The position numbers and the translations under genes were made by a program. DNA of 63,328 nucleotides, filler included, from Globobulimina sp. (lineage: Eukaryota), in the NCBI GenBank assembly GCA_003354225.1. It is 19 parts of 19 records of this genome, joined end to end, with 100 filler letters (N's around TTAATTAATTAA, not from the genome) between each part and the next. Parts side by side here need not be neighbours in the genome. Positions count along the whole stretch, not along the records: positions 3,343 to 6,583 come from PIVH01003330.1; 18 more parts are not named here. The stretch is one strand, 5' to 3'. Positions 3,243-19,945 of the stretch are shown one piece after another. Under the pieces are notes generated by a model. That model saw only the letters and a list, made by a program, of their open reading frames with translations, was not told the origin of the DNA and did no database searches. Numbering within the stretch: the first letter of the stretch is position 1; each line of letters starts with the position of its first letter.

Positions 3243-3342
3243 NNNNNNNNNNNNNNNNNNNNNNNNNNNNNNNNNNNNNNNNNNNNTTAATTAATTAANN
3301 NNNNNNNNNNNNNNNNNNNNNNNNNNNNNNNNNNNNNNNNNN
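3243..3342. other. Artificial contig linker (N44-TTAATTAATTAA-N44), first of 18
   Basis: Identical 100-nt spacers with stops in all six frames at 3243-3342, 6584-6683, 9925-10024, 13266-13365, 16606-16705, 19946-20045, 23285-23384, 26624-26723, 29962-30061, 33300-33399, 36638-36737, 39975-40074, 43312-43411, 46649-46748, 49985-50084, 53321-53420, 56657-56756, 59993-60092. Confidence 0.99.
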
Positions 3343-3343
3343 T

Positions 3344-5443
3344 ATTAATGATTCAATTAAAATGGGAAACATGGAATTCTGGCATGAAGATATTAAATTA
3401 GCTACACAAGCTTACATGGCAGGTTACTATAACAAAAATAAAATAATAAACAAACAAAAGGGTATAATAATAGTAGCAAACTTCCCTAACAAGGGGATGG
3501 AAATGCTCAAATTAGAAACAATTTTTAAGGATAGACGACTACAAAAAGCATTTACATTTCAAAATAAAAAATCAGAACAAGCTATTATTACTTATAAATA
3601 TGTAACACCTATCAGTCGTAAATTGTTTAATTATAATTATTTTCTCAAAAAACTTAATATTAGTGAAATTAGAAACATTGCACAAAATAAATGTGAATGT
3701 GTTAATTCAAAATTTGTTTATAATCAATTTCACCACATAATTACGGGAGATTTAAATATTGTCGAAAATACAAAACTAAGAAATTTGTTTGGGAAAGGAG
3801 CAAAATACAGAGAACCAACAGCTGTCAACTGGATAGAAGTCAAAGACAGTGCTATTACAGCGGTAAATGAGTATGTCAGGAAAACTATCAGAAAATGTAC
3901 AACCAGCAAAAGAAGATTTATATTAAGAGCCATGGAAGATTACAAAAAGCTATCTACAAAGATAATTGATAATAGAATTCGCTTTCTAGCAGAGAATGTG
4001 GAAGACAACACTCAAATGCTGTCAATTTTATGTCAACAACAATGTTATAAAGAATTGAAAAGACTGCATGCAAAATTTGTTATAGCGCCAGCTGACAAAG
4101 CAAGCAATAACTTTATCTTTATCTGTAAAAAATATTATACTGAAGTCATGTGCAAGGAACTTGGCATTGAAATTGACAATAATGGTGATTACTCTGTAGC
4201 AGGAAATCTAGTTTATGAACCTAGCAATATTGATGGCAACAGATTGATCGAAAAGCATAAAAGGTTAACAGCACAAAATGGAATAGCAAAATTTGGAGAA
4301 GATAATGAATGTTTACCAGTCATCTTTGCCACGCCTAAGCTGCACAAAGATCCTTATAAATTCCGTTTTATAGCTGGAGCTCGTAACTCTTCTACTAAAC
4401 CTATGTCCAAAATTCTACATCAAATATTAGGGCACTTCCAAAAACACTTTGAAAGATATTGTGCCATAGTTAGTAAAAGAAAAGGATTCAATTGTTATTG
4501 GTCCATTAAAGGCAGTTTGGAAGCACTCAGAAGGATTGAACATAAAATCCAATCGAAAAAACTTGATAGTATATGTACTGCAGATTTCAGCTCTCTTTAT
4601 ACAATGTTTCCACATAACGTTATAAAGGAACAACTTTGCAAGCTTACAGACATGTTATTTAATCATTCCAACAAAAGATTTGTGGTAATTTCATATGCTA
4701 ATGTCTACTATGCAGATCAAGTGGATGCCAGCAATATTATAGTTCTTGATAAAAATGAAGTTAAATCACTTATTAGTGACGTAATAGATGAAACATATGT
4801 AATATTTGGTGGTTTTCACTTTAGACAATCACGTGGTGTTCCAATGGGTGGTAATGCTAGTCCACTTATTGCAGATTTAACACTAAGTATGCTAGAATAC
4901 ATATTTTTGACTAAAAACGAAAACATGAAATTGGCCAAAGCCATGACACATACTATGAGGTATATAGATGATATATTGTCGTTAAACTGTGAAAAGTTTC
5001 TAGAATATGCAAAATTAATATATCCAACATGTTTACCATTAGATAATACTGCAAAATCAGCATATGAAAGCTGTTTTTTGGACATACATATTAACTTAAA
5101 TTTGGGTTATAAACGAATTTCAGTTTATAACAAAACTGATGATTTTAATTTTCATGTTGTCAGATATGGTTTTGCTAGTAGCAATGTACATACTTCAATG
5201 GGATATAAAGTACTGTATTCACAACTTATTAGAATGGGACGCATATGTAACAACTTAAAAGATTTCGAAATCAGAGTTAAACAACTTATAGACACATTGT
5301 CAAAAAATGGCTATAATAAAAGCAGTATGTCCTACATGTTCTTCAAGTTTGCGACAGCATATAGTCCTTTATTACTTAAATTCAAACTGGATAATAAAAT
5401 AAAAATAGCTAAATTTGGTAATAGACTCATAACAAAAGAATAA
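3344..5443 (+). CDS. Penelope-like reverse transcriptase, 5'-truncated, no C-terminal GIY-YIG
   Basis: Frame is open from the contig edge. Motifs: CEC...HIITGDL...KGAKYREP, PADKASNN, PKLHK..KFRFIA, ADFSSLYT, QSRGVPMGGNASP, RYIDD, FLDI, thumb YNKTDDFNF; stop at 5443. Confidence 0.92.
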   Translation: MNDSIKMGNMEFWHEDIKLATQAYMAGYYNKNKIINKQKGIIIVANFPNKGMEMLKLETIFKDRRLQKAFTFQNKKSEQAIITYKYVTPISRKLFNYNYFLKKLNISEIRNIAQNKCECVNSKFVYNQFHHIITGDLNIVENTKLRNLFGKGAKYREPTAVNWIEVKDSAITAVNEYVRKTIRKCTTSKRRFILRAMEDYKKLSTKIIDNRIRFLAENVEDNTQMLSILCQQQCYKELKRLHAKFVIAPADKASNNFIFICKKYYTEVMCKELGIEIDNNGDYSVAGNLVYEPSNIDGNRLIEKHKRLTAQNGIAKFGEDNECLPVIFATPKLHKDPYKFRFIAGARNSSTKPMSKILHQILGHFQKHFERYCAIVSKRKGFNCYWSIKGSLEALRRIEHKIQSKKLDSICTADFSSLYTMFPHNVIKEQLCKLTDMLFNHSNKRFVVISYANVYYADQVDASNIIVLDKNEVKSLISDVIDETYVIFGGFHFRQSRGVPMGGNASPLIADLTLSMLEYIFLTKNENMKLAKAMTHTMRYIDDILSLNCEKFLEYAKLIYPTCLPLDNTAKSAYESCFLDIHINLNLGYKRISVYNKTDDFNFHVVRYGFASSNVHTSMGYKVLYSQLIRMGRICNNLKDFEIRVKQLIDTLSKNGYNKSSMSYMFFKFATAYSPLLLKFKLDNKIKIAKFGNRLITKE

Positions 5444-5450
5444 AATTTGA

Positions 5451-5826
5451 TCTGACAGCTTGCCTAGCTATTATTTTACTAGCTGATAAGCTAGCGGTTT
5501 TATTTACTCACCTTTTGGTGAGTGGTGTTAATCTGTTTACTAGCTTTTAAGCTAGCGGTTTTATTTACACACCTTCGGAAAGTGGTGCTAATCTAGCTTT
5601 GTAGCTAATTTTGGCTATGCCTATGGCGTTGCTTTGCGCCCTTGCTTTAAAACAATACACGCAACTTGCGTCAAATTACTAAATCAAATGCAACAGTCTA
5701 CTGCAGTTTTTATTAGCCTGTAATTTTCCTCAGCAGAAAATAAAGCTTGGTTGCAAATAATAAGCAATTAGATAAAAGGAGCAAGGCATAGAAGTCTAAA
5801 TATTTGATTAGCTATTTGCTGTCAGA
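5451..5826 (+). ncRNA. Predicted structured 3'-UTR RNA of the PLE
   Basis: Nested complementary pairs TCTGACAGC(5451-5459)/GCTGTCAGA(5818-5826), TAGCTAAT(5602-5609)/ATTAGCTA(5807-5814), CTATGCCT(5615-5622)/AGGCATAG(5784-5791), plus a duplicated hairpin module. Confidence 0.6.
5475..5596 (+). repeat. Two tandem ~61-bp imperfect repeats containing hairpins
   Basis: TTTACTAGCTgataAGCTAGCGGTTTTATTTAC...AGTGGTG.TAATCT repeated at 5475-5535 and 5536-5596; the CTAGCT/AGCTAG stem is kept while its loop changes (gata vs ttta). Confidence 0.9.
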
Positions 5827-6298
5827 CCTAAAATTGACATATTATGATCCTCAGATAATAATTCGGAAAAAGTTTCCAGAAACCAAAAACATTAAATTTT
5901 AATTTCTGTCTACTGCGTTTACCATCAGTAAAAATGGCTCCACCAGTGGGATCAAACAAACGAAATAGAAGAGAGGAGGATAATGATGATGGTGATCAAC
6001 ACAACGGTTCAACAATACAAGTAAAACATTTTTTCGTTTATATTATAAACAGTGTACCGTGTTTAAATTTAATAATTTTTTTGCACAAATAACAGAAAAA
6101 ATTTTTCCGCCCACTTGCAGATATTAATTTATATTCTCCTGTATAGTTTGCACTTTGGTTAACACAATTCTCCTTTTTAATTATTTAATTTTTTAATATT
6201 TAAAATCAATTTTTTTAAAAATTTTTTTCTAAGAGTAGAATAGAGGAGTTTTGGTCAAAAATGCATTTTATAACTTTTTGATTTAATTATGAGCTTCG

Positions 6299-6379
6299 AT
6301 GCTATTGGTAGTCTACTGACGAGGTCCAATCAATAGCATACTGAACTTGGTCTAGACTTGGGACCGAAACCAGATTCAG
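6299..6379 (+). ncRNA. Hammerhead ribozyme, non-circularly permuted topology
   Basis: CUGACGA 6316-6322, GAAA 6366-6369, GUC 6350-6352; stem I 6310-6315/6353-6358, stem II 6323-6327/6361-6365, stem III 6341-6351/6369-6379, extra helix 6299-6308/6330-6339. Confidence 0.85.
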
Positions 6380-6683
6380 ATAGGTAGAACCTTTTATCTA
6401 TTTTCGTAATATCATATAATCTACTAAAAAATTTTTTGGTTATAAGTCTAGTTTTTTGCACTGATACATTTGTATCTATTCATTTTCACTTTGAAACTGT
6501 AGGGTCTGAGGCGAATGGAGCGTTAAAGATATGGTTTACAACAACCGCTCTTGACGGCTACAGGTTAACAATGATAAATAACANNNNNNNNNNNNNNNNN
6601 NNNNNNNNNNNNNNNNNNNNNNNNNNNTTAATTAATTAANNNNNNNNNNNNNNNNNNNNNNNNNNNNNNNNNNNNNNNNNNNN

Positions 6684-12027: not shown

Positions 12028-13197
12028 TTATAAAATGTTATAAAATGGTTGTTTGCGCTGAGCAAATTTTTTTGATATTTGAATTTTATATCTTTTGAAA
12101 TATACTTTAAACCACGGATGGCATATTACATTCATTAATCGATGTGCTTCATTAATATTTAATAAACTCTTCAATAAGGAAAAGGAAGCAAAGTTGAAAT
12201 ATTTTAGCATGTTATACTTATGCATCATCAAATATTCTCTCAATTTATTATGAAATAATGCGTCGTATCCACTGCCTGCTTCATAGATTTCCAATGGTTG
12301 ATACAAGTGTTTACCCACAGTCATAACCTCAAACATAATCATCCCTAATCGCCAAATATCAGCACCTCTCGCATCGTAAACCTCGCCGCAAAATACTTTT
12401 GGTGCGAAATATGCTTCATTTTCTAATGAAAGTCCTTGTTTAGAACATAAAAACGAGTTTAATTCAAATACTTCAGCAACACCGAAATCCACTAATTTTA
12501 CAGATATTTTCGGATTAATATGTACAACGCGGCCTTGTTGCTCATGGATGAAAGCACCATTCAGCAACATTATATTTTCAGTGCACAAATCCAAATGGCA
12601 ACAATGCATACAATCATGCAGCCATTGCACAGTTACAAATAACTGAAATAATAAATATTTCATAATTGACTGATATTCTTTCATGGATAGTCTTCCATTA
12701 TTGATATAGCCATTTGCTTTCCATACAAATTCTTTTAAATTCATTTCTGACGCAATATACTCAGTCACCAAATAATAATAATCATCTGACTCAAAGAAAT
12801 CTACATATTTGGCAATATAATCACCAATCGGTTGATGATCAACAGTCAAATATTTAAGGATTTGAGCTTCGATGATTATATTCTCAGACACACAAAAATT
12901 AATATCCCCTTCAATTGCAATCTTTGCTCTTATTAACTCTTTGCTCGTTTTTTTAACCGCCACATAACTCTCTTTTCCTGCTCCACACATTCGCAGTTTC
13001 TTGGCTTTGTATAATTTACCTTGTAATGTGTCACAAATCACTGCTATTTTCTCATATCCATTTTGCCGAAATCTTATGTTTTCATCCATTTCAGATATGT
13101 TGCTCAATAACGCTAACACTGGAATATCGTCTAAAGACGCATCTGAATCCCAATCAACCAACGGATCGGATGATGCAATTGTTGAAGGAAGTGACAT
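12028..13197 (-). CDS. Divergent Ser/Thr protein kinase (CAMK-like, non-RD)
   Basis: VAVKK, E in ENIIIEAQIL, HLDLCTENI, VDFG, YFAPKV, ADIWRLG, HPWF. Confidence 0.85.
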   Translation of the reverse strand: MSLPSTIASSDPLVDWDSDASLDDIPVLALLSNISEMDENIRFRQNGYEKIAVICDTLQGKLYKAKKLRMCGAGKESYVAVKKTSKELIRAKIAIEGDINFCVSENIIIEAQILKYLTVDHQPIGDYIAKYVDFFESDDYYYLVTEYIASEMNLKEFVWKANGYINNGRLSMKEYQSIMKYLLFQLFVTVQWLHDCMHCCHLDLCTENIMLLNGAFIHEQQGRVVHINPKISVKLVDFGVAEVFELNSFLCSKQGLSLENEAYFAPKVFCGEVYDARGADIWRLGMIMFEVMTVGKHLYQPLEIYEAGSGYDALFHNKLREYLMMHKYNMLKYFNFASFSLLKSLLNINEAHRLMNVICHPWFKVYFKRYKIQISKKFAQRKQPFYNIL

Positions 13198-16705: not shown

Positions 16706-18960
16706 ATCAAACCCATATCTCGATTTTGGTCCGACGATTCCCGAACCGGAGATTCGCGGGGTCCATAATTGAAACAGCAACAAATTATTTCGGCCAATAT
16801 AGGACGGATCGAGCTGAAATTTGTTTTGTATGTTCGGAAGACATAGACAAACAACTTGTCCGAGCCGGATTTTTGATTTTTATTTTCCAATCGGCGATTC
16901 GCGAGGTCCCAAATGTAAAACTGAAATCGCTACAATACCTTTAATAATGGTCGGATCGCGGTGAAATTTGTTTTGTGGTTAGCGTGTAGGTAGAGGAATG
17001 GAATCCATGTCTCGGTTCGGTCGAACGAACCGGTGTGGGTTCCCAGAGTGAAATGGAAATCGTTATAATAGCCTTAAGAAGGGGGGTAAACCGACGACGG
17101 GTAAGAGTGGTCAATTAATTATTTACAACCAATTTCGGCCAATTTATGAGGGATTGAGGTCAAATTTGTTTTGGGGGTGCCGGAGTGATAGACTAATAAA
17201 ACGTACATCTCGGATTTTCTATTTTGATTTCCGATTCGGCGATTCGCGGGGTCATGGACTGAAACGTAAATCGTTATAAAACATTTTATATTGGTCGGAT
17301 CGAGCTGAAATTTGTTTTGGGGGTACTGGGGGCATATGCGAACACAACCCACTTGTCGATTTTGGTCCGACAATTCGACGATTGACTAAACGTAGCATTT
17401 AACACTGCACCAAAAGAGTAATGTTTTATTTTATCGGTTATTTTTCATGATATTTTATTGCAAATATATTTGTATTAATTAATAATCACTGTTTATTGCT
17501 GCTTGTGCTGTTGTGTGTGTTATTCCTTGCTTTTGTTTAATAGAAACCGGTACGAGCGTTAAAGATTTATCACATCGTTCGGACACGGATGAAAACTGAC
17601 ATTTTTCGACTACTTTGATTCAGAGACGACCTCGGAGAGATTGGCGTTCAAACCATGTTGATGAAGAATAATCAATATGTATCTTTCACTAGTGGTTAAT
17701 TGCTAACCATTTGAACGAATAAAGGACATTTTGGGATATTTAATGATTAGGCACTGCCGATCGTTTCTTGTGTGAAAGAAACACTGTTAATTACGGAAAC
17801 AATAGATAAATAAATACTAAAAATAAATACAACAACAATAAATACTAAAAATTACTGTTGTAAAAAAGACAAGTCACAAATAAATATCATAATAAAATAA
17901 AAATTTATTCAAGCAAGGTAAACGGAACAAAACAAAACAGTAGGATTTAGTGTCTCCTATAAGACATCTGCTTTTTAAATAAATTTATGGCCCTGAAGAG
18001 GGCCGTTTGGGTTAGTTTATTCTTTGTTAATGACAGCCCTTGTTCAATCTGAAAAGAATAATAATGTTAAATATGCAGGTAAAAGGATCCAGTAGAGCCC
18101 TTAAAAAACGGCAATCCAAAATCGACATTTTCGGCAATTGCTTTGCCATTTTCGGCAGGCAAACCTAGGCATTTCCGGCAACGATTTTCGCATTTTCGGC
18201 AATTTTTATGGGGAATTAAAAACGCTAATTTCTGGCGAATTATGCATTAAACTGTGATTTTTGATGATTTCGATCTCATGCACATGCAGTAACGTTTAGT
18301 GTCTGTAACATTGAAAAACTGCTTTGTTCATCAATATTTTTTGCTAAAATGACACGAACAGCTCAAAGCTATGGCAGCTAATTTTGGAGTTCAATCTATG
18401 GTCACATTCAGAAACAAAGATTGACCAAATTTTTCTTTAAATTCAGGTTCGATTTTGGCCATATTGATTTTTAGCAACAAAATCTCCAACCGGACAGCGT
18501 TTGCAACGGAAATTTCGACAATTTTCGAAGGAAAAACCGCTAAAATGACCAATTTTTTGGCTTTCGGCAAATTCGGTGAAATTTCATATTTTCGGCATTT
18601 CCTCCCATTTTCGGCATTTGCCGTTTTTTAAGGGCTCTAGATCCAAGTCATGCAAAAAAAATTGCAAACTGAGCCATGCTTAAATAATGTAACGTAAGTA
18701 AGGTCGGATCGGGCTGAAATTTGTTTTGGGGGTTCAGAGAGCACGTTGGCGAATCTAACGCACTTGTCTTTTTTGGTCCGACGATTCCCGAATCGGCGAT
18801 TCGATGGGTCCCAGTGTTAAATGGAAATCGTTATAAAACCCTTAATAATGGTCGGATTTAGCTGAAATTTTTCTTGGGAGTACCGGGGACATATACGAAC
18901 CCAACGCACTTTTTGATTTTGGTCGGACGATTCCAGAATCGGTGATTCGGTGAAGTTGGT
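16706..18960. repeat. Degenerate ~140-150-bp repeat family in two clusters (16706-17380, 18700-18960)
   Basis: Recurring GTCGGATCGAGCTGAAATTTGTTTTG (near 16803, 16950, 17294, 18703, 18851) and TTTTGGTCCGACGATTCCCGAATCGGCGATTCG motifs. Confidence 0.8.
18093..18639. mobile_element. Non-autonomous DNA transposon (hAT-like MITE), 547 bp
   Basis: Perfect 22-bp TIRs TAGAGCCCTTAAAAAACGGCAA (18093-18114) / TTGCCGTTTTTTAAGGGCTCTA (18618-18639); near-duplicated flanks GATCC-AG / GATCCAAG; many subterminal TTTCGGCA motifs. Confidence 0.88.
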
Positions 18961-19129
18961 TGGGTTAACCCCCACCCCGATGGCGAGGGTGCGAGCGTAG
19001 CGAGCACCCGAGCGTCGCAAGGTATCTGTTGTTTAGTTTATATTTTTATTTTGGCCCCAAGGGGCCATAGAAAAGAATGATACTAGACGGCAAAATGCAC
19101 TTCGCGCATAGAATTGTCCTTTAATGTTT

Positions 19130-19710
19130 GCAGCGTAGAAAATGGGGATACTAGAAGTACGATTGATAGCTGTTTGCATGAAGCGTAGAAAAGGGGGACA
19201 GTAGAAAGCTGTTAGCATGCAGCGTAGAAAATGGGGATACTAGAAGCACGATGGAAAGTTGTTAGCATGCAGTGTAGAAAAGGGGGATACTAGAAGCATG
19301 ATGGAAAGCTGTTTGGGTGCAGCGTAGAAAAGGGGGATACTAGAAGCATGATGGAAAGCTGTTAGCATGCAGCGTAGAAAAGGGGGATACTAGAAGCATG
19401 ATCGAAAGTTGTTAGCATGCAGCGTAGAAAAGGGGAATACTAGAAGTATGATGGAAAGCTGTTTGCATGCAGCGTAGAAAAGGGGGATACTAGAAGCATG
19501 ATGGAAAGCTGTTTGCATGCAGCGTAGAAAAGGGGGATACTAGAAGCACGATGGAAAGCTGTTAGCATGCAGCGTAGAAAAGGGGGATACTAGAAGCACG
19601 AGCGAAAGTTGTTAGCATGCAGCGTAGAAAATGGGGATACTAGAAGCACGATGGAAAGCTGTTTGCATGCAGCGTAGAAAAGGGGGATACTAGAAGCACG
19701 ATGGACAGCT
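19130..19710 (+). repeat. 50-bp tandem minisatellite, about 11-12 copies
   Basis: Unit GCATGCAGCGTAGAAAAGGGGGATACTAGAAGCAYGATGGAAAGCTGTT(A/T), period 50. Confidence 0.97.
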
Positions 19711-19945
19711 ATAAGACAATAAGTCCTCGCAGATTTAAAAAAATTTAAAAAATTTAAAAAAAAACATTAAATGACAGCGATGTAGTGTATGGGAATTAAT
19801 CGACCTGGTTGCGTCTGACGCGCGACGCGATCGCTGTCATTTAATGTTTTTTTTAAATTTTTTAAATTTTTTTAAATCTGCGAGGACTTATTGTCTTATA
19901 GCTGTCCATCGTGCTTCTAGTATCCCCCTTTTCTACGCTGCATGC
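19665..19945. repeat. Long inverted repeat (>=116-bp arms, 48-nt spacer) truncated by the contig end
   Basis: 19665-19781 is the reverse complement of 19830-19945 apart from one base in an A/T run; spacer 19782-19829. Confidence 0.97.

What the first reader, a model, noticed from the sequence alone, without database searches (positions are those of the whole stretch)
6299..6379. Non-circularly permuted (pseudoknotted) hammerhead ribozyme in a Penelope-like element
Seen: all hammerhead core nucleotides are present (CUGACGA 6316-6322, GAAA 6366-6369, GUC 6350-6352), but the cleavage strand sits inside what should be the loop of stem II. Stem I: AGUCUA 6310-6315 / UAGACU 6353-6358. Stem II: GGUCC 6323-6327 / GGACC 6361-6365. 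Stem III: CUGAACUUGGU 6341-6351 / ACCAGAUUCAG 6369-6379 (one G-U, one mismatch). An extra 10-bp helix, AUGCUAUUGG 6299-6308 / UCAAUAGCAU 6330-6339, uses up the remaining linker, so nearly every base is accounted for. Established: types I, II and III are circular permutations of the strand order UH > CUGA > GAAA, and PLEs usually carry minimal type I hammerheads. Here the order is CUGA > UH > GAAA, which no circular permutation produces. The 2-nt link from stem I to stem II fits their side-by-side packing in the 3D fold. I recall that a few natural non-circular hammerhead permutations have been reported, so the class may be known. An example in a protist PLE with this extra helix may be new, and standard type I-III models would probably miss it. 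Inference: it self-cleaves after C6352 to process the element's transcript.
Basis: partly seen in the sequence, partly recalled or inferred. Interest (0 to 1): 0.93.

Follow-up and report, generated by a model that had tools for sequence, protein, structure and literature searches.

The report
Permuted hammerhead ribozyme in a retrotransposon
A self-cutting RNA motif (hammerhead ribozyme) with its three parts in a rare, knotted order sits behind the reverse-transcriptase gene of a Penelope-like jumping gene, and related elements keep the same layout, which gives this rare ribozyme form a biological home.

Summary
Window 6299-6379 (+) holds every hammerhead core nucleotide and stems I, II and III in the block order CUGANGA > cleavage site > GAAA, plus a fourth helix.

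This topology is already published as the "type-CSG" hammerhead (Eckert et al., NAR 2023, PMC10085705). That paper had two similar metagenome sequences that cleave in vitro, no host and no context. It also describes a helix joining stems I and II, so the extra helix is not new.

New here:
- **Context.** The motif lies 873 nt behind a reverse-transcriptase ORF carrying the CxC and DKA motifs of the N-terminal-endonuclease Penelope-like elements (Naiad/Chlamys type). Craig et al. 2021 reported that these lack canonical hammerheads.
- **Relatives.** Ten related loci carry the same topology, all on the RT strand and 338-1071 nt behind the RT. All four helices covary: 91% of cells paired against 62% when shuffled, and 26 of 32 pairs show double changes. 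They fall in one RT clade.
- **Sister clade.** It carries a further, apparently undescribed permutation, opened between A9 and G10.1.

Cleavage after C6352 and transcript processing are inferred. No RNA data could be obtained.

The parts
3344..5443 (+). Reverse-transcriptase ORF of the host retroelement. It is open from the first base of its 3241-nt contig, so it is 5'-truncated by the contig end. The stop codon is at 5441-5443.
   Evidence: Searches give the ORF and translation. It has a weak RVT_1 hit. CxC (C111, C113) and DKA (D245, K246, A247) are invariant or nearly invariant in alignment A1. Homologues of about 40% identity are 900-1000 aa long, with an N-terminal GIY-YIG domain and a C-terminal RT.
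6299..6309 (+). Helix X, 5' strand. This helix joins the distal ends of stems I and II.
   Evidence: Pairs with 6329-6339 over 11 bp. 1 of 1000 linker shuffles did as well. Helix X is 94-98% paired across 11 relatives.
6310..6315 (+). Stem I, 5' strand (positions 2.6-2.1).
   Evidence: Pairs with 6353-6358. In A6 this helix was not modelled by the covariance model, yet it is 85.9% paired and 5 of 6 pairs show double changes.
6316..6322 (+). Core box CUGACGA (C3-A9).
   Evidence: Read. Present as CUGANGA in all 11 aligned sequences.
6323..6327 (+). Stem II, 5' strand (10.1-10.5).
   Evidence: Pairs with 6361-6365. G10.1-C11.1 is present in 11 of 11 sequences.
6329..6339 (+). Helix X, 3' strand.
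6341..6351 (+). Stem III, 5' strand. U6351 is U16.1.
   Evidence: Pairs with 6369-6379, with one mismatch and one G-U. Stem III is 93-96% paired across relatives.
6352..6352 (+). C17. The predicted scissile bond lies between C6352 and U6353.
   Evidence: Assigned by analogy with the hammerhead numbering. H17 is C in 9 and A in 2 of 11 relatives. Cleavage itself was not tested.
6353..6358 (+). Stem I, 3' strand (1.1-1.6).
6361..6365 (+). Stem II, 3' strand (11.5-11.1). It follows stem I after a 2-nt linker.
   Evidence: This linker is 0-6 nt in relatives.
6366..6369 (+). Core box GAAA (G12-A15.1).
   Evidence: Read. Invariant in 11 of 11 sequences.
6369..6379 (+). Stem III, 3' strand.
   Evidence: Read. 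C15.2-G16.2 is present in 10 of 11 sequences.

Best explanation
Window 6299-6379 (+) encodes a type-CSG hammerhead ribozyme, that is, a hammerhead with the non-classical block order CUGANGA > cleavage site > GAAA. It lies in the 3' untranslated region of a Penelope-like retroelement of the N-terminal-endonuclease (Naiad/Chlamys-like) kind.

What the sequence and comparison show:
- Stems I, II and III surround a fully canonical 13-nt core.
- A fourth helix, X, ties the outer ends of stems I and II together. Together with the 2-nt link between stem I and stem II, it forms a second three-way junction opposite the catalytic one.

What is inferred:
- The RNA cuts itself after C6352, in a Mg2+-dependent reaction that leaves a 2',3'-cyclic phosphate.
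- This trims element transcripts. Such elements lie head to tail, so cleavage would release unit-length RNA from read-through or tandem transcripts. This is the role proposed for the minimal type I hammerheads of canonical PLEs.
For: **Anatomy.** The anatomy is exact and unique in the window.

**Published precedent.** Two type-CSG sequences cleave at the predicted site in vitro, and a G-to-mutant control does not (PMC10085705, section 15).

**Relatives found by descriptor.** Loci were fetched through the RT protein, not through the RNA.
- A relaxed descriptor hits 8 of 80 metagenome loci and 2 of 10 MAG-binned loci. All hits are on the RT strand, none is on the opposite strand, and they lie 338-1071 nt behind the end of the RT match.
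- Shuffles gave 0-2 hits per replicate.
- A search for all six block orders found only CSG on the + strand, plus one weak SCG hit on the - strand.

**Independent homology search.**
- A covariance model built from the window sequence alone, with only the two nested helices, finds L030 (E = 1e-5), L006, L081 and L007.
- The second-round model also finds L056, L052, L082, L083, L001 and L002.

**Covariation on that alignment (11 sequences).**
- 91.0% of cells are paired, against 62.2% in shuffles (0 of 500 reach it) and 37-45% with slid partners.
- 26 of 32 pairs have changes on both sides.
- Stems I and II were not modelled by the covariance model, yet they are 85.9% and 76.1% paired.

**Hallmarks that the descriptor did not impose.** G10.1-C11.1 in 11 of 11, C15.2-G16.2 in 10 of 11, H17 = C or A.

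**Helix X.** Helix X is 6-14 bp in 11 of 11 sequences. At most 10 of 1000 shuffles match it in 8 of the 11.

**Phylogeny.** On a quick RT tree, all 9 CSG rows and 3 variants lie in one 18-row clade with SH-aLRT support 95.

**Tandem layout in relatives.**
- L083 1-98 is identical to 5008-5105, including the S and G blocks.
- L082 1-780 matches 5276-6050 at 93%.
- L030 has identical contig ends.

**Link to canonical PLE hammerheads.** Three relatives carry an extra nucleotide between A9 and G10.1. This trait is reported as conserved in canonical PLE hammerheads (PMC4209133, passages).
Against: - No cleavage assay exists for this sequence, and no RNA evidence.
- Published type-CSG rates are slow, at 0.004 and 0.026 per min.
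- Geometry is not obviously comfortable. The outer end of the 11-bp helix X is joined to the outer end of the 11-bp stem III by a single nucleotide (A6340). Eckert et al. flag the same problem for type SGC.
- A nested alternative fold pairs part of the S block with the G block.
- Only one copy is in the window, and the element's ends are not on the contig.
- In the CSG clade, L011 (830 nt of 3' flank) shows no motif, and L007 has lost C15.2.
- The descriptor-selected pair table is partly circular.
- The Naiad/Chlamys assignment rests on motifs described in a paper, not on a tree with reference sequences.
Confidence: 0.8

Rival explanations
1. The motif is catalytically competent only between molecules or between repeat units. 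The C block of one RNA pairs with the S and G blocks of another, giving a conventional unknotted three-way junction. This resembles the minimal PLE hammerheads, which act as dimers.
For: - Every pair among stems I, II and III crosses, so a bimolecular form removes the knots.
- Canonical PLE hammerheads are thought to work as dimers (PMC4209133).
- The main text of Eckert et al. contains no mention of a dimer or concentration test (word search).
- Related elements occur in tandem.
Against: - Stem III is long (9-14 positions in the full examples; W 11), so the reason dimers are needed in minimal hammerheads, a 1-2 bp stem III, is absent.
- Helix X and the 0-6 nt stem I to stem II link are conserved. 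They make sense as devices that hold one molecule's stems I and II together.
- Tandem units are about 4-5 kb apart.
- The published type-CSG constructs cleaved co-transcriptionally as short single RNAs.
Confidence: 0.12
2. The structure is conserved for another purpose, for example as a 3'-UTR recognition element for the element's reverse transcriptase. The hammerhead-like core would then be inactive or incidental.
For: - It lies in the 3' UTR, where retroelement RTs commonly recognise their template.
- No cleavage data exist for this sequence.
- The published type-CSG rates are low.
Against: - All core nucleotides (CUGANGA, GAAA, UH) plus G10.1-C11.1 and C15.2-G16.2 are kept across RT lineages only about 35-40% identical, while the helices change sequence freely. 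This is the signature of selection on catalysis.
- Two sequences of the same topology do cleave.
Confidence: 0.06
3. It is a chance arrangement of short motifs in AT-rich DNA.
For: The CUGANGA and GAAA boxes are short. The nested fold energy is not unusual (z = -0.56).
Against: - 0 of 100 and a mean of 0.055 per shuffle in the controls.
- The same architecture sits at the same place and on the same strand in 10 related loci.
- Covariance-model E-values reach 1e-5 from a single-sequence model.
Confidence: 0.01

Closest known systems
Type-CSG hammerhead ribozymes CSG-1 and CSG-2 (Eckert, Friedrich, Weinberg & Weinberg, NAR 2023, PMC10085705)
   Same: - The block order is the same, C > S > G, with a canonical core.
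- Both have a helix bringing stems I and II together, and both are found in DNA.
- The sizes are similar. The published products are 48/49 + 29 nt. Here the motif runs 54 nt from the start of helix X to C6352 and 27 nt from there to the end of stem III.
   Different: - The published set is two similar metagenome sequences with "modest" covariation, no host and no genetic context in the main text.
- This one lies in an assembled eukaryotic contig behind a PLE reverse transcriptase. It has at least 10 diverged relatives.
- Sequence identity to CSG-1/2 could not be checked, because Supplementary Table S1 is closed.
Type-SGC hammerheads (HRIMA-1 motif and variants; same paper)
   Same: Type SGC belongs to the same non-classical cycle: SGC is a circular permutation of CSG. 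Both have a short stem I to stem II link and a helix joining stems I and II.
   Different: - The 5' and 3' ends are placed differently.
- Type SGC was found only in metatranscriptomes with hairpin ribozymes, presumably in circular RNA replicons. It was not found in DNA or in retrotransposons.
Minimal type I hammerheads of canonical Penelope-like elements (Cervera & de la Pena 2014, PMC4209133; Lunse et al. 2017, seen only as a reference entry)
   Same: - The host is the same kind of element.
- G10.1-C11.1 is conserved in both.
- An extra nucleotide between A9 and G10.1 occurs in 3 relatives here.
- A role in cutting tandem precursor RNA is proposed for both.
   Different: - Those hammerheads have the classical order C > G > S, a 1-2 bp stem III, and are thought to act as dimers.
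- Here the order is C > S > G and stem III is long (9-14 positions in the full examples). There is also a fourth helix.
"HHR_half_core" notes on Naiad/Chlamys PLEs (Craig et al. 2021, PMC8557442, Methods passage)
   Same: - The element type matches: N-terminal GIY-YIG, CxC and DKA.
- They noted CUGANGA in the 3' UTR with GAAA 35-50 nt away. Here the spacer is 43 nt, and 40-58 nt in relatives.
   Different: - They could not fit those cases to any hammerhead descriptor, and concluded that canonical hammerheads are absent.
- Whether their eight cases are type CSG could not be checked, because supplementary file S1 is closed.

Membership tests
Hammerhead ribozyme (catalytic core) | Conserved boxes CUGANGA and GAAA, and a UH cleavage dinucleotide with an A15.1-U16.1 pair. 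| tested here: met
   CUGACGA is at 6316-6322 and GAAA at 6366-6369. U6351 pairs with A6369, and C6352 is H17. The same boxes occur in 11 of 11 relatives.
Hammerhead ribozyme (catalytic core) | Three helices, I, II and III, abut the core and are supported by covariation. G10.1-C11.1 and C15.2-G16.2 are typical. | tested here: met
   On alignment A6, 91% of cells are paired and 26 of 32 pairs show double changes. G10.1-C11.1 is present in 11 of 11 sequences and C15.2-G16.2 in 10 of 11.
Hammerhead ribozyme (catalytic core) | Matches an Rfam hammerhead covariance model (types I, II, III, HH9, HH10). | tested here: not met
   There is no hammerhead hit at gathering score or at E<=10, and none in 20 related loci. 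This is expected, because those models encode the classical block order.
Hammerhead ribozyme (catalytic core) | Site-specific, Mg2+-dependent self-cleavage that is abolished by a core G mutation. | not testable with these tools
   This needs in vitro transcription.
Type-CSG hammerhead (Eckert et al. 2023) | 5'-to-3' block order C (stem I-CUGANGA-stem II) > S (stem III-UH-stem I) > G (stem II-GAAA-stem III), with uninterrupted blocks. | tested here: met
   The blocks are at 6310-6327, 6341-6358 and 6361-6379. The definition is taken from section 13 of the paper.
Type-CSG hammerhead (Eckert et al. 2023) | A helix bringing stems I and II together. | tested here: met
   Helix X pairs 6299-6309 with 6329-6339. 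It is present in 11 of 11 relatives. The feature is stated in the paper's Discussion.
Type-CSG hammerhead (Eckert et al. 2023) | Sequence homology to CSG-1 and CSG-2. | not testable with these tools
Penelope-like element, N-terminal-EN clade (Naiad/Chlamys; Craig et al. 2021) | CxC zinc-finger-like motif, and the DKG motif changed to DKA, upstream of the RT core. | tested here: met
   C111/C113 and D245/K246/A247 of the window ORF are invariant or nearly invariant in the 39-sequence alignment A1. The diagnostic motifs are as quoted from the paper.
Penelope-like element, N-terminal-EN clade (Naiad/Chlamys; Craig et al. 2021) | The GIY-YIG endonuclease lies N-terminal to the RT. | tested here: inconclusive
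   The window ORF is cut by the contig start. All 7 homologues scanned have the GIY-YIG domain N-terminal: 6 also show the C-terminal RVT_1 match, and P0013 gave no RVT_1 match.
Penelope-like element, N-terminal-EN clade (Naiad/Chlamys; Craig et al. 2021) | Groups with reference Naiad or Chlamys RTs in a phylogeny, and has the IFD insertion between RT motifs A and B. | not tested
   No reference Naiad or Chlamys sequences could be fetched. The A-to-B spacing is 81 aa (D408 to Q489), but no comparison set was available.
Penelope-like element, N-terminal-EN clade (Naiad/Chlamys; Craig et al. 2021) | Partial tandem or pseudo-LTR arrangement. | tested here: inconclusive
   The 3241-nt window contig has no internal repeat. 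Tandem or terminal repeats are seen in the relatives L083, L082 and L030.
Canonical PLE minimal type I hammerhead | Block order C > G > S, with a 1-2 bp stem III. | tested here: not met
   The order here is C > S > G and stem III spans 11 positions. The six-order search found no CGS form in 80 loci.

The most novel reading that the evidence does not exclude
Hammerheads are not missing from the N-terminal-endonuclease Penelope-like elements. These elements carry them in the non-classical cyclic order, which standard descriptors cannot see.

- One RT clade, including this window, has type CSG.
- Its sister clade has a so far undescribed further permutation. There the chain is opened inside the catalytic core, between A9 and G10.1. 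The layout is: closing helix IV, a hairpin, stem II 5' strand, helix X, S block, G block, helix X, stem I 5' strand, CUGANGA, helix IV.

If the sister-clade form is active, two things follow. The rule that the hammerhead consists of three uninterruptible blocks is broken. And a self-cleaving hammerhead becomes a near-universal PLE feature inherited from their common ancestor.

The eight "HHR_half_core" cases of Craig et al. 2021 and the two orphan CSG-1/2 sequences of Eckert et al. 2023 would then be members of this family.
Probability: 0.4. Interest if true: 0.85.

Novelty: new member of a known kind. Interest (0 to 1): 0.7.

Why it matters
**For type CSG.** It was the weakest-supported natural hammerhead permutation that its authors still judged likely valid (the single type-GCS candidate had less support). 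It rested on two similar metagenome sequences with modest covariation, no organism and no function. This locus and its relatives supply the following:
- A genetic context, namely the 3' UTR of a retrotransposon.
- A eukaryotic genome contig.
- Eleven diverged examples with strong covariation in all four helices.
- A plausible job, cutting tandem element transcripts.

**For transposon biology.** It bears on the open question of why Naiad/Chlamys-type PLEs, alone among PLEs, seemed to do without hammerheads.

**For RNA structure.** The family offers natural series that could guide structural work on how a knotted hammerhead folds:
- Linker lengths of 0-6 nt.
- Insertions of 1, 10 and 30 nt at the A9/G10.1 junction.
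- A form opened at that junction.

**For annotation.** Rfam-style models and standard descriptors miss all of these.

Tried and rejected
- **Own genome:** none is held for this window.
- **RNA evidence:** No read ends could be examined.
- **Viral contigs:** no relative of the RT was found.
- **MAFFT alignment of seven motifs (A2):** it misaligned the S block. I replaced it with core-anchored tables and covariance-model alignments (A6, A9).
- **First loose "split" descriptor:** too many shuffle hits (6-13 per replicate), so I tightened it.
- **Covariance models:** they did not recover L005 (CSG) or L020, L023, L024, L036 and L042 (split form). Those rest on the descriptors only.
- **Pfam, PDB sequence and profile searches, ESM Atlas:** these added only GIY-YIG (I-TevI-like), generic RT and unnamed eukaryotic RT clusters. 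None gave a PLE name.
- **Earlier findings of this scan:** nothing was held.
- **L003, L042, L055 and L083:** these are irregular or cut motifs. I left them out of the pair table. L083 re-entered through the covariance-model alignment A6.
- **Tree:** the careful search did not finish in time, so the quick tree is what is reported.
- **Tandem-repeat explanation:** I considered whether tandem repetition could turn CSG into a classical type and rejected it. The cyclic permutations of CSG are SGC and GCS, never CGS, GSC or SCG.
Full report
**What the window is.** The 63,328-base window is not one stretch of chromosome. Eighteen linkers (runs of N around a stop-in-all-frames spacer) divide it into 19 pieces of about 3.24 kb. 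These are most simply short contigs of one fragmented assembly laid end to end. The finding lies in the piece 3343-6583, so the neighbouring pieces give no synteny. No whole genome is held.

**The observation.**
- Helix X: 6299-6308 with 6330-6339, extendable by U6309-A6329.
- Stem I: 6310-6315 with 6353-6358.
- Core box CUGACGA: 6316-6322.
- Stem II: 6323-6327 with 6361-6365.
- Stem III: 6341-6351 with 6369-6379, with one C-A mismatch and one G-U.
- GUC at 6350-6352 and GAAA at 6366-6369.

In hammerhead numbering every core position is canonical, including G10.1-C11.1, C15.2-G16.2, A15.1-U16.1 and C17.

The motif is not a chance arrangement. A pattern built from the core halves occurs once in the window and in 0 of 100 shuffles. 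A descriptor for this strand order finds only this site in the window, and 200 shuffles gave a mean of 0.055 hits.

Rfam 15 gives no hammerhead match at gathering score or at E<=10. A nested-only fold is unremarkable (z = -0.56). Both results are expected for a structure whose three core helices all cross one another.

**What is already known.** The block order here (CUGANGA block, then cleavage-site block, then GAAA block) is the "type-CSG" hammerhead defined by Eckert, Friedrich, Weinberg and Weinberg (NAR 2023, PMC10085705). I read the abstract, sections 7, 13, 14, 15 and 17, part 1 of section 18, and word-search passages. I did not see the supplements.

They divide the ribozyme into blocks C, S and G. 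Types I, II and III are CGS, GSC and SCG. The other cycle, SGC, CSG and GCS, cannot be reached by circular permutation of the classical types. For type CSG they report:
- Cleavage at the predicted site, giving products of 48/49 and 29 nt, at 0.004 and 0.026 per min.
- A mutant control that stays uncleaved.
- Only "modest" covariation.

They state that no such RNA was found in the genome of a known organism apart from one type-GCS candidate. [quoted passage not shown] So the topology and the fourth helix are both published. The term "type-CSG" occurs in no other paper of the searched library.

**The host element.** The ORF at 3344-5443 is open from the first base of the contig and ends 873 nt before the CUGACGA box.
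- It has a weak RVT_1 match.
- It carries a CxC motif, a DKA motif, and PKLHK, FRFIAGA and YIDD motifs.
- A database search returned 207 relatives. The best are about 40% identical, 900-1000 aa long, and mostly from short metagenome contigs.
- All seven that I scanned have a GIY-YIG nuclease domain at the N-terminus. Six of the seven also show the RT match at the C-terminus; P0013 gave no RVT_1 match.
- In the 39-sequence alignment A1 the CxC cysteines and DK(A) are invariant or nearly so.

This is the architecture Craig et al. (MBE 2021, PMC8557442; passages read, supplements not seen) give as diagnostic for the Naiad/Chlamys group of Penelope-like elements: an N-terminal GIY-YIG, a CxC motif, and DKG changed to DKA. 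They report that this group lacks canonical hammerheads. They also note eight 3'-UTR cases with CUGANGA and a GAAA 35-50 nt away, which fitted no descriptor ("HHR_half_core"). The spacer here is 43 nt.

I could not fetch reference Naiad or Chlamys sequences, so the assignment rests on these motifs and not on a tree.

A kinase on another piece of the window has a foraminifer as its best named relative, at 36-39% identity. That gives weak support for a protist host.

**Relatives carry the same ribozyme.** Using alignment A1, I fetched 80 metagenome loci and 10 loci from MAG-binned contigs that encode related RTs. Viral contigs gave none.

*Descriptor searches.*
- A strict type-CSG descriptor found L001, L002 and L005.
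- A relaxed descriptor (stems of at least 4 bp with at most one mismatch, and an optional extra base after A9) found 8 of the 80 loci (L001, L002, L005, L006, L007, L030, L052, L056) and 2 of the 10 (L081, L082).
- All hits are on the RT strand and none is on the other strand. They lie 338-1071 nt beyond the end of the RT match.
- Shuffled loci gave 0-2 hits per replicate.
- A search for all six block orders gave three CSG hits on the + strand and one weak SCG hit on the - strand.
- L004 and L055 are cut by contig ends. L003 and L083 are irregular variants.

*Features the descriptor did not require.*
- G10.1-C11.1 is present in 11 of 11 sequences.
- C15.2-G16.2 is present in 10 of 11.
- H17 is C in 9 sequences and A in 2.
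- Helix X, 6-14 bp long, is present in 11 of 11. In 8 of the 11, at most 10 of 1000 linker shuffles do as well.

**Independent homology and covariation.** Descriptor-selected sequences pair by construction, so I also ran a homology search seeded only from the window.
- A covariance model was built from 6297-6381 alone, containing just the two mutually nested helices (X and III). It found L030 (E = 1.2e-5), L006 (5.3e-5), L081 (0.004), L007 (0.03) and L083 (0.23), at the same places and on the same strand.
- A second model built from the five best matches added L056 (2e-6), L052 (1e-5), L082 (0.002), L001 (0.06) and L002 (0.2). L005 was not recovered.

On the resulting 11-sequence alignment I wrote stems I and II as pseudoknots. 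The model did not fit these two stems. The results:
- 91.0% of 322 cells form standard pairs, against 62.2% in 500 shuffles (none reach the observed value) and 37-45% with slid partners.
- 26 of 32 pairs have changes on both sides.
- Stem I is 85.9% paired, and 5 of its 6 pairs show double changes.
- Stem II is 76.1% paired, even though the extra base after A9 puts some rows out of register.

A quick RT tree was built from the 61 of 91 sequences with enough coverage. L052 and L056 were too short, and the careful search did not finish. All 9 CSG rows and 3 variants fall in one 18-row clade with SH-aLRT support 95. Of the other six rows in that clade:
- Four have under 450 nt of 3' flank.
- L011 has 830 nt of flank without a motif.
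- L035's flank runs into a bacterial-looking gene.

**How it probably works.** *Shown:* a canonical hammerhead core, with four covarying helices in CSG order.

*Structural reading, inferred from the connectivity:*
- Helix X runs directly into the 5' strand of stem I (0-1 nt) and follows the 5' strand of stem II (1-2 nt).
- The 3' strand of stem I joins the 3' strand of stem II through 2 nt (0-6 nt in relatives).
- The outer ends of stems I and II therefore form a second three-way junction with helix X. It holds the two stems side by side, as the loop-loop contact does in classical hammerheads.

*Inferred:* cleavage after C6352.

*Biological role, inferred:*
- Relatives lie in tandem. L083 repeats its last 98 nt, including the S and G blocks and the next 72 nt, at the contig start. 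L082 repeats 780 nt. L030 and many other contigs have identical ends.
- A cut in each unit would therefore release unit-length RNA. Cervera and de la Pena proposed this role for canonical PLE hammerheads (PMC4209133, passages).
[quoted passage not shown] Three relatives here (L030, L052, L081) have one. This hints at common descent with the canonical PLE ribozymes.

**Caveats.**
- There is no cleavage or RNA evidence for this sequence.
- The published type-CSG rates are slow.
- Only one nucleotide links the outer ends of helix X and stem III. Eckert et al. also find this hard to reconcile with the crystal structure for type SGC.
- A dimeric mode is not excluded. The main text of the 2023 paper mentions no test of it.

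**Seen in passing: a further permutation.** In the sister RT clade, the 3' flank shows what first looked like a lone CUGAUGA box. Upstream of it, in order, lie:
1. A stem II 5' strand beginning with G.
2. One strand of helix X.
3. The S block.
4. The G block.
5. The other strand of helix X.
6. The stem I 5' strand, followed by the CUGANGA box.

The bases right after A9 pair with a segment further upstream, forming a closing helix IV. A hairpin sits between that helix and stem II. Evidence for this form:
- A strict descriptor finds it in 15 of 90 loci on the + strand, 2 on the - strand and 0 in the window. Shuffles gave 0-3 hits.
- A model built from L018 alone finds L014 (3e-21), L025, L013, L064, L058 and L060.
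- On those 7 sequences, 94.8% of cells pair against 64.1% shuffled, and 30 of 37 pairs show double changes. The unmodelled stems I and II are included in that count.

L083, in the CSG clade, carries two closed hairpins at the same A9/G10.1 junction. The sister-clade form therefore looks like that architecture circularly permuted by opening the first hairpin. I found no description of such a form. This literature check is limited to the open-access library and to main texts.

**Novelty and verdict.** The window motif is a new member of a known kind, the type-CSG hammerhead. Its context appears unreported in the searches I ran: a eukaryotic contig, the 3' UTR of an N-terminal-endonuclease Penelope-like element, and a family of diverged relatives. 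Those searches covered:
- hammerhead + Penelope-like + permut (19 papers)
- non-circular permutation (8 papers)
- type-CSG (1 paper)
- Naiad + hammerhead + Penelope-like (4 papers)

. Supplements of the two key papers may bear on this, and I could not see them.

Noticed in passing
L018:3776-3881 (+); also L013, L014, L020, L021, L023, L024, L025, L033, L036, L042, L058, L060, L064, L085: The sister RT clade carries a hammerhead-like motif opened between A9 and G10.1. In order, it has helix IV, a hairpin, the stem II 5' strand, helix X, the S block, the G block, helix X, the stem I 5' strand, CUGANGA, and helix IV again. A strict descriptor hits 15 of 90 loci on the + strand and 2 on the - strand. 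Across 7 sequences 94.8% of cells pair, and 30 of 37 pairs show double changes. The form appears undescribed, and its activity is untested.
   Followed up: yes
L083:4947-4976; L042:2685-2694; one base after A9 in L030, L052 and L081: Within the CSG clade, the junction between A9 and G10.1 tolerates insertions. They are 1 nt (U) in three loci, about 10 nt in L042, and about 30 nt forming two small hairpins in L083. Block C is therefore not always uninterrupted.
   Followed up: partly
L083:1-98 and 5008-5105; L082:1-780 and 5276-6050; L030:1-137 and 4023-4159: These are direct repeats typical of head-to-tail or pseudo-LTR PLE arrangements. In L083 the upstream partial copy includes the S and G blocks of the ribozyme, and the repeat ends about 91 nt after the predicted cut. 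Nine other contigs (L014, L019, L020, L021, L028, L033, L046, L062, L067) have matching repeats at or within 30 nt of both contig ends; in L034 the repeat pair is internal.
   Followed up: partly
window 3243-3342, 6584-6683 and 16 further sites: The window is 19 pieces of about 3.24 kb joined by N-run linkers around a TTAATTAATTAA spacer. Adjacent pieces are not neighbours in the genome.
   Followed up: yes
window 17964-18009 (-): Rfam histone 3' UTR stem-loop, 36.9 bits against a gathering score of 34. It lies on another contig of the window.
   Followed up: no
window 19104-19803 and 19847-19945: A tandem array of a 50-nt unit with at least 10 copies. An inverted partial copy lies just downstream.
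   Followed up: no
window 5475-5514 and 5536-5575: Two 40-nt direct repeats (93% identical) lie just after the RT stop codon. Each contains short palindromes that could form hairpins. Their role is unknown.
   Followed up: no
window 6380-6386; L006 about 3709-3716; L007 about 3494-3501: A short shared AGATAG-like run directly follows stem III in the window motif and in its two relatives L006 and L007. It is absent from the other relatives.
   Followed up: no
L035:2150-2718: The 3' flank of this PLE contig turns into a bacterial-looking ABC-type ATPase gene, suggesting a chimeric assembly. Its lack of a ribozyme is therefore uninformative.
   Followed up: no
window 12028-13197 (-): The best named relatives of this protein kinase ORF come from the foraminifer Ammonia sp., at 36-39% identity. 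The top hits are unnamed EukProt entries at 52-56% identity. This is a weak hint that the assembly is from a rhizarian protist.
   Followed up: partly
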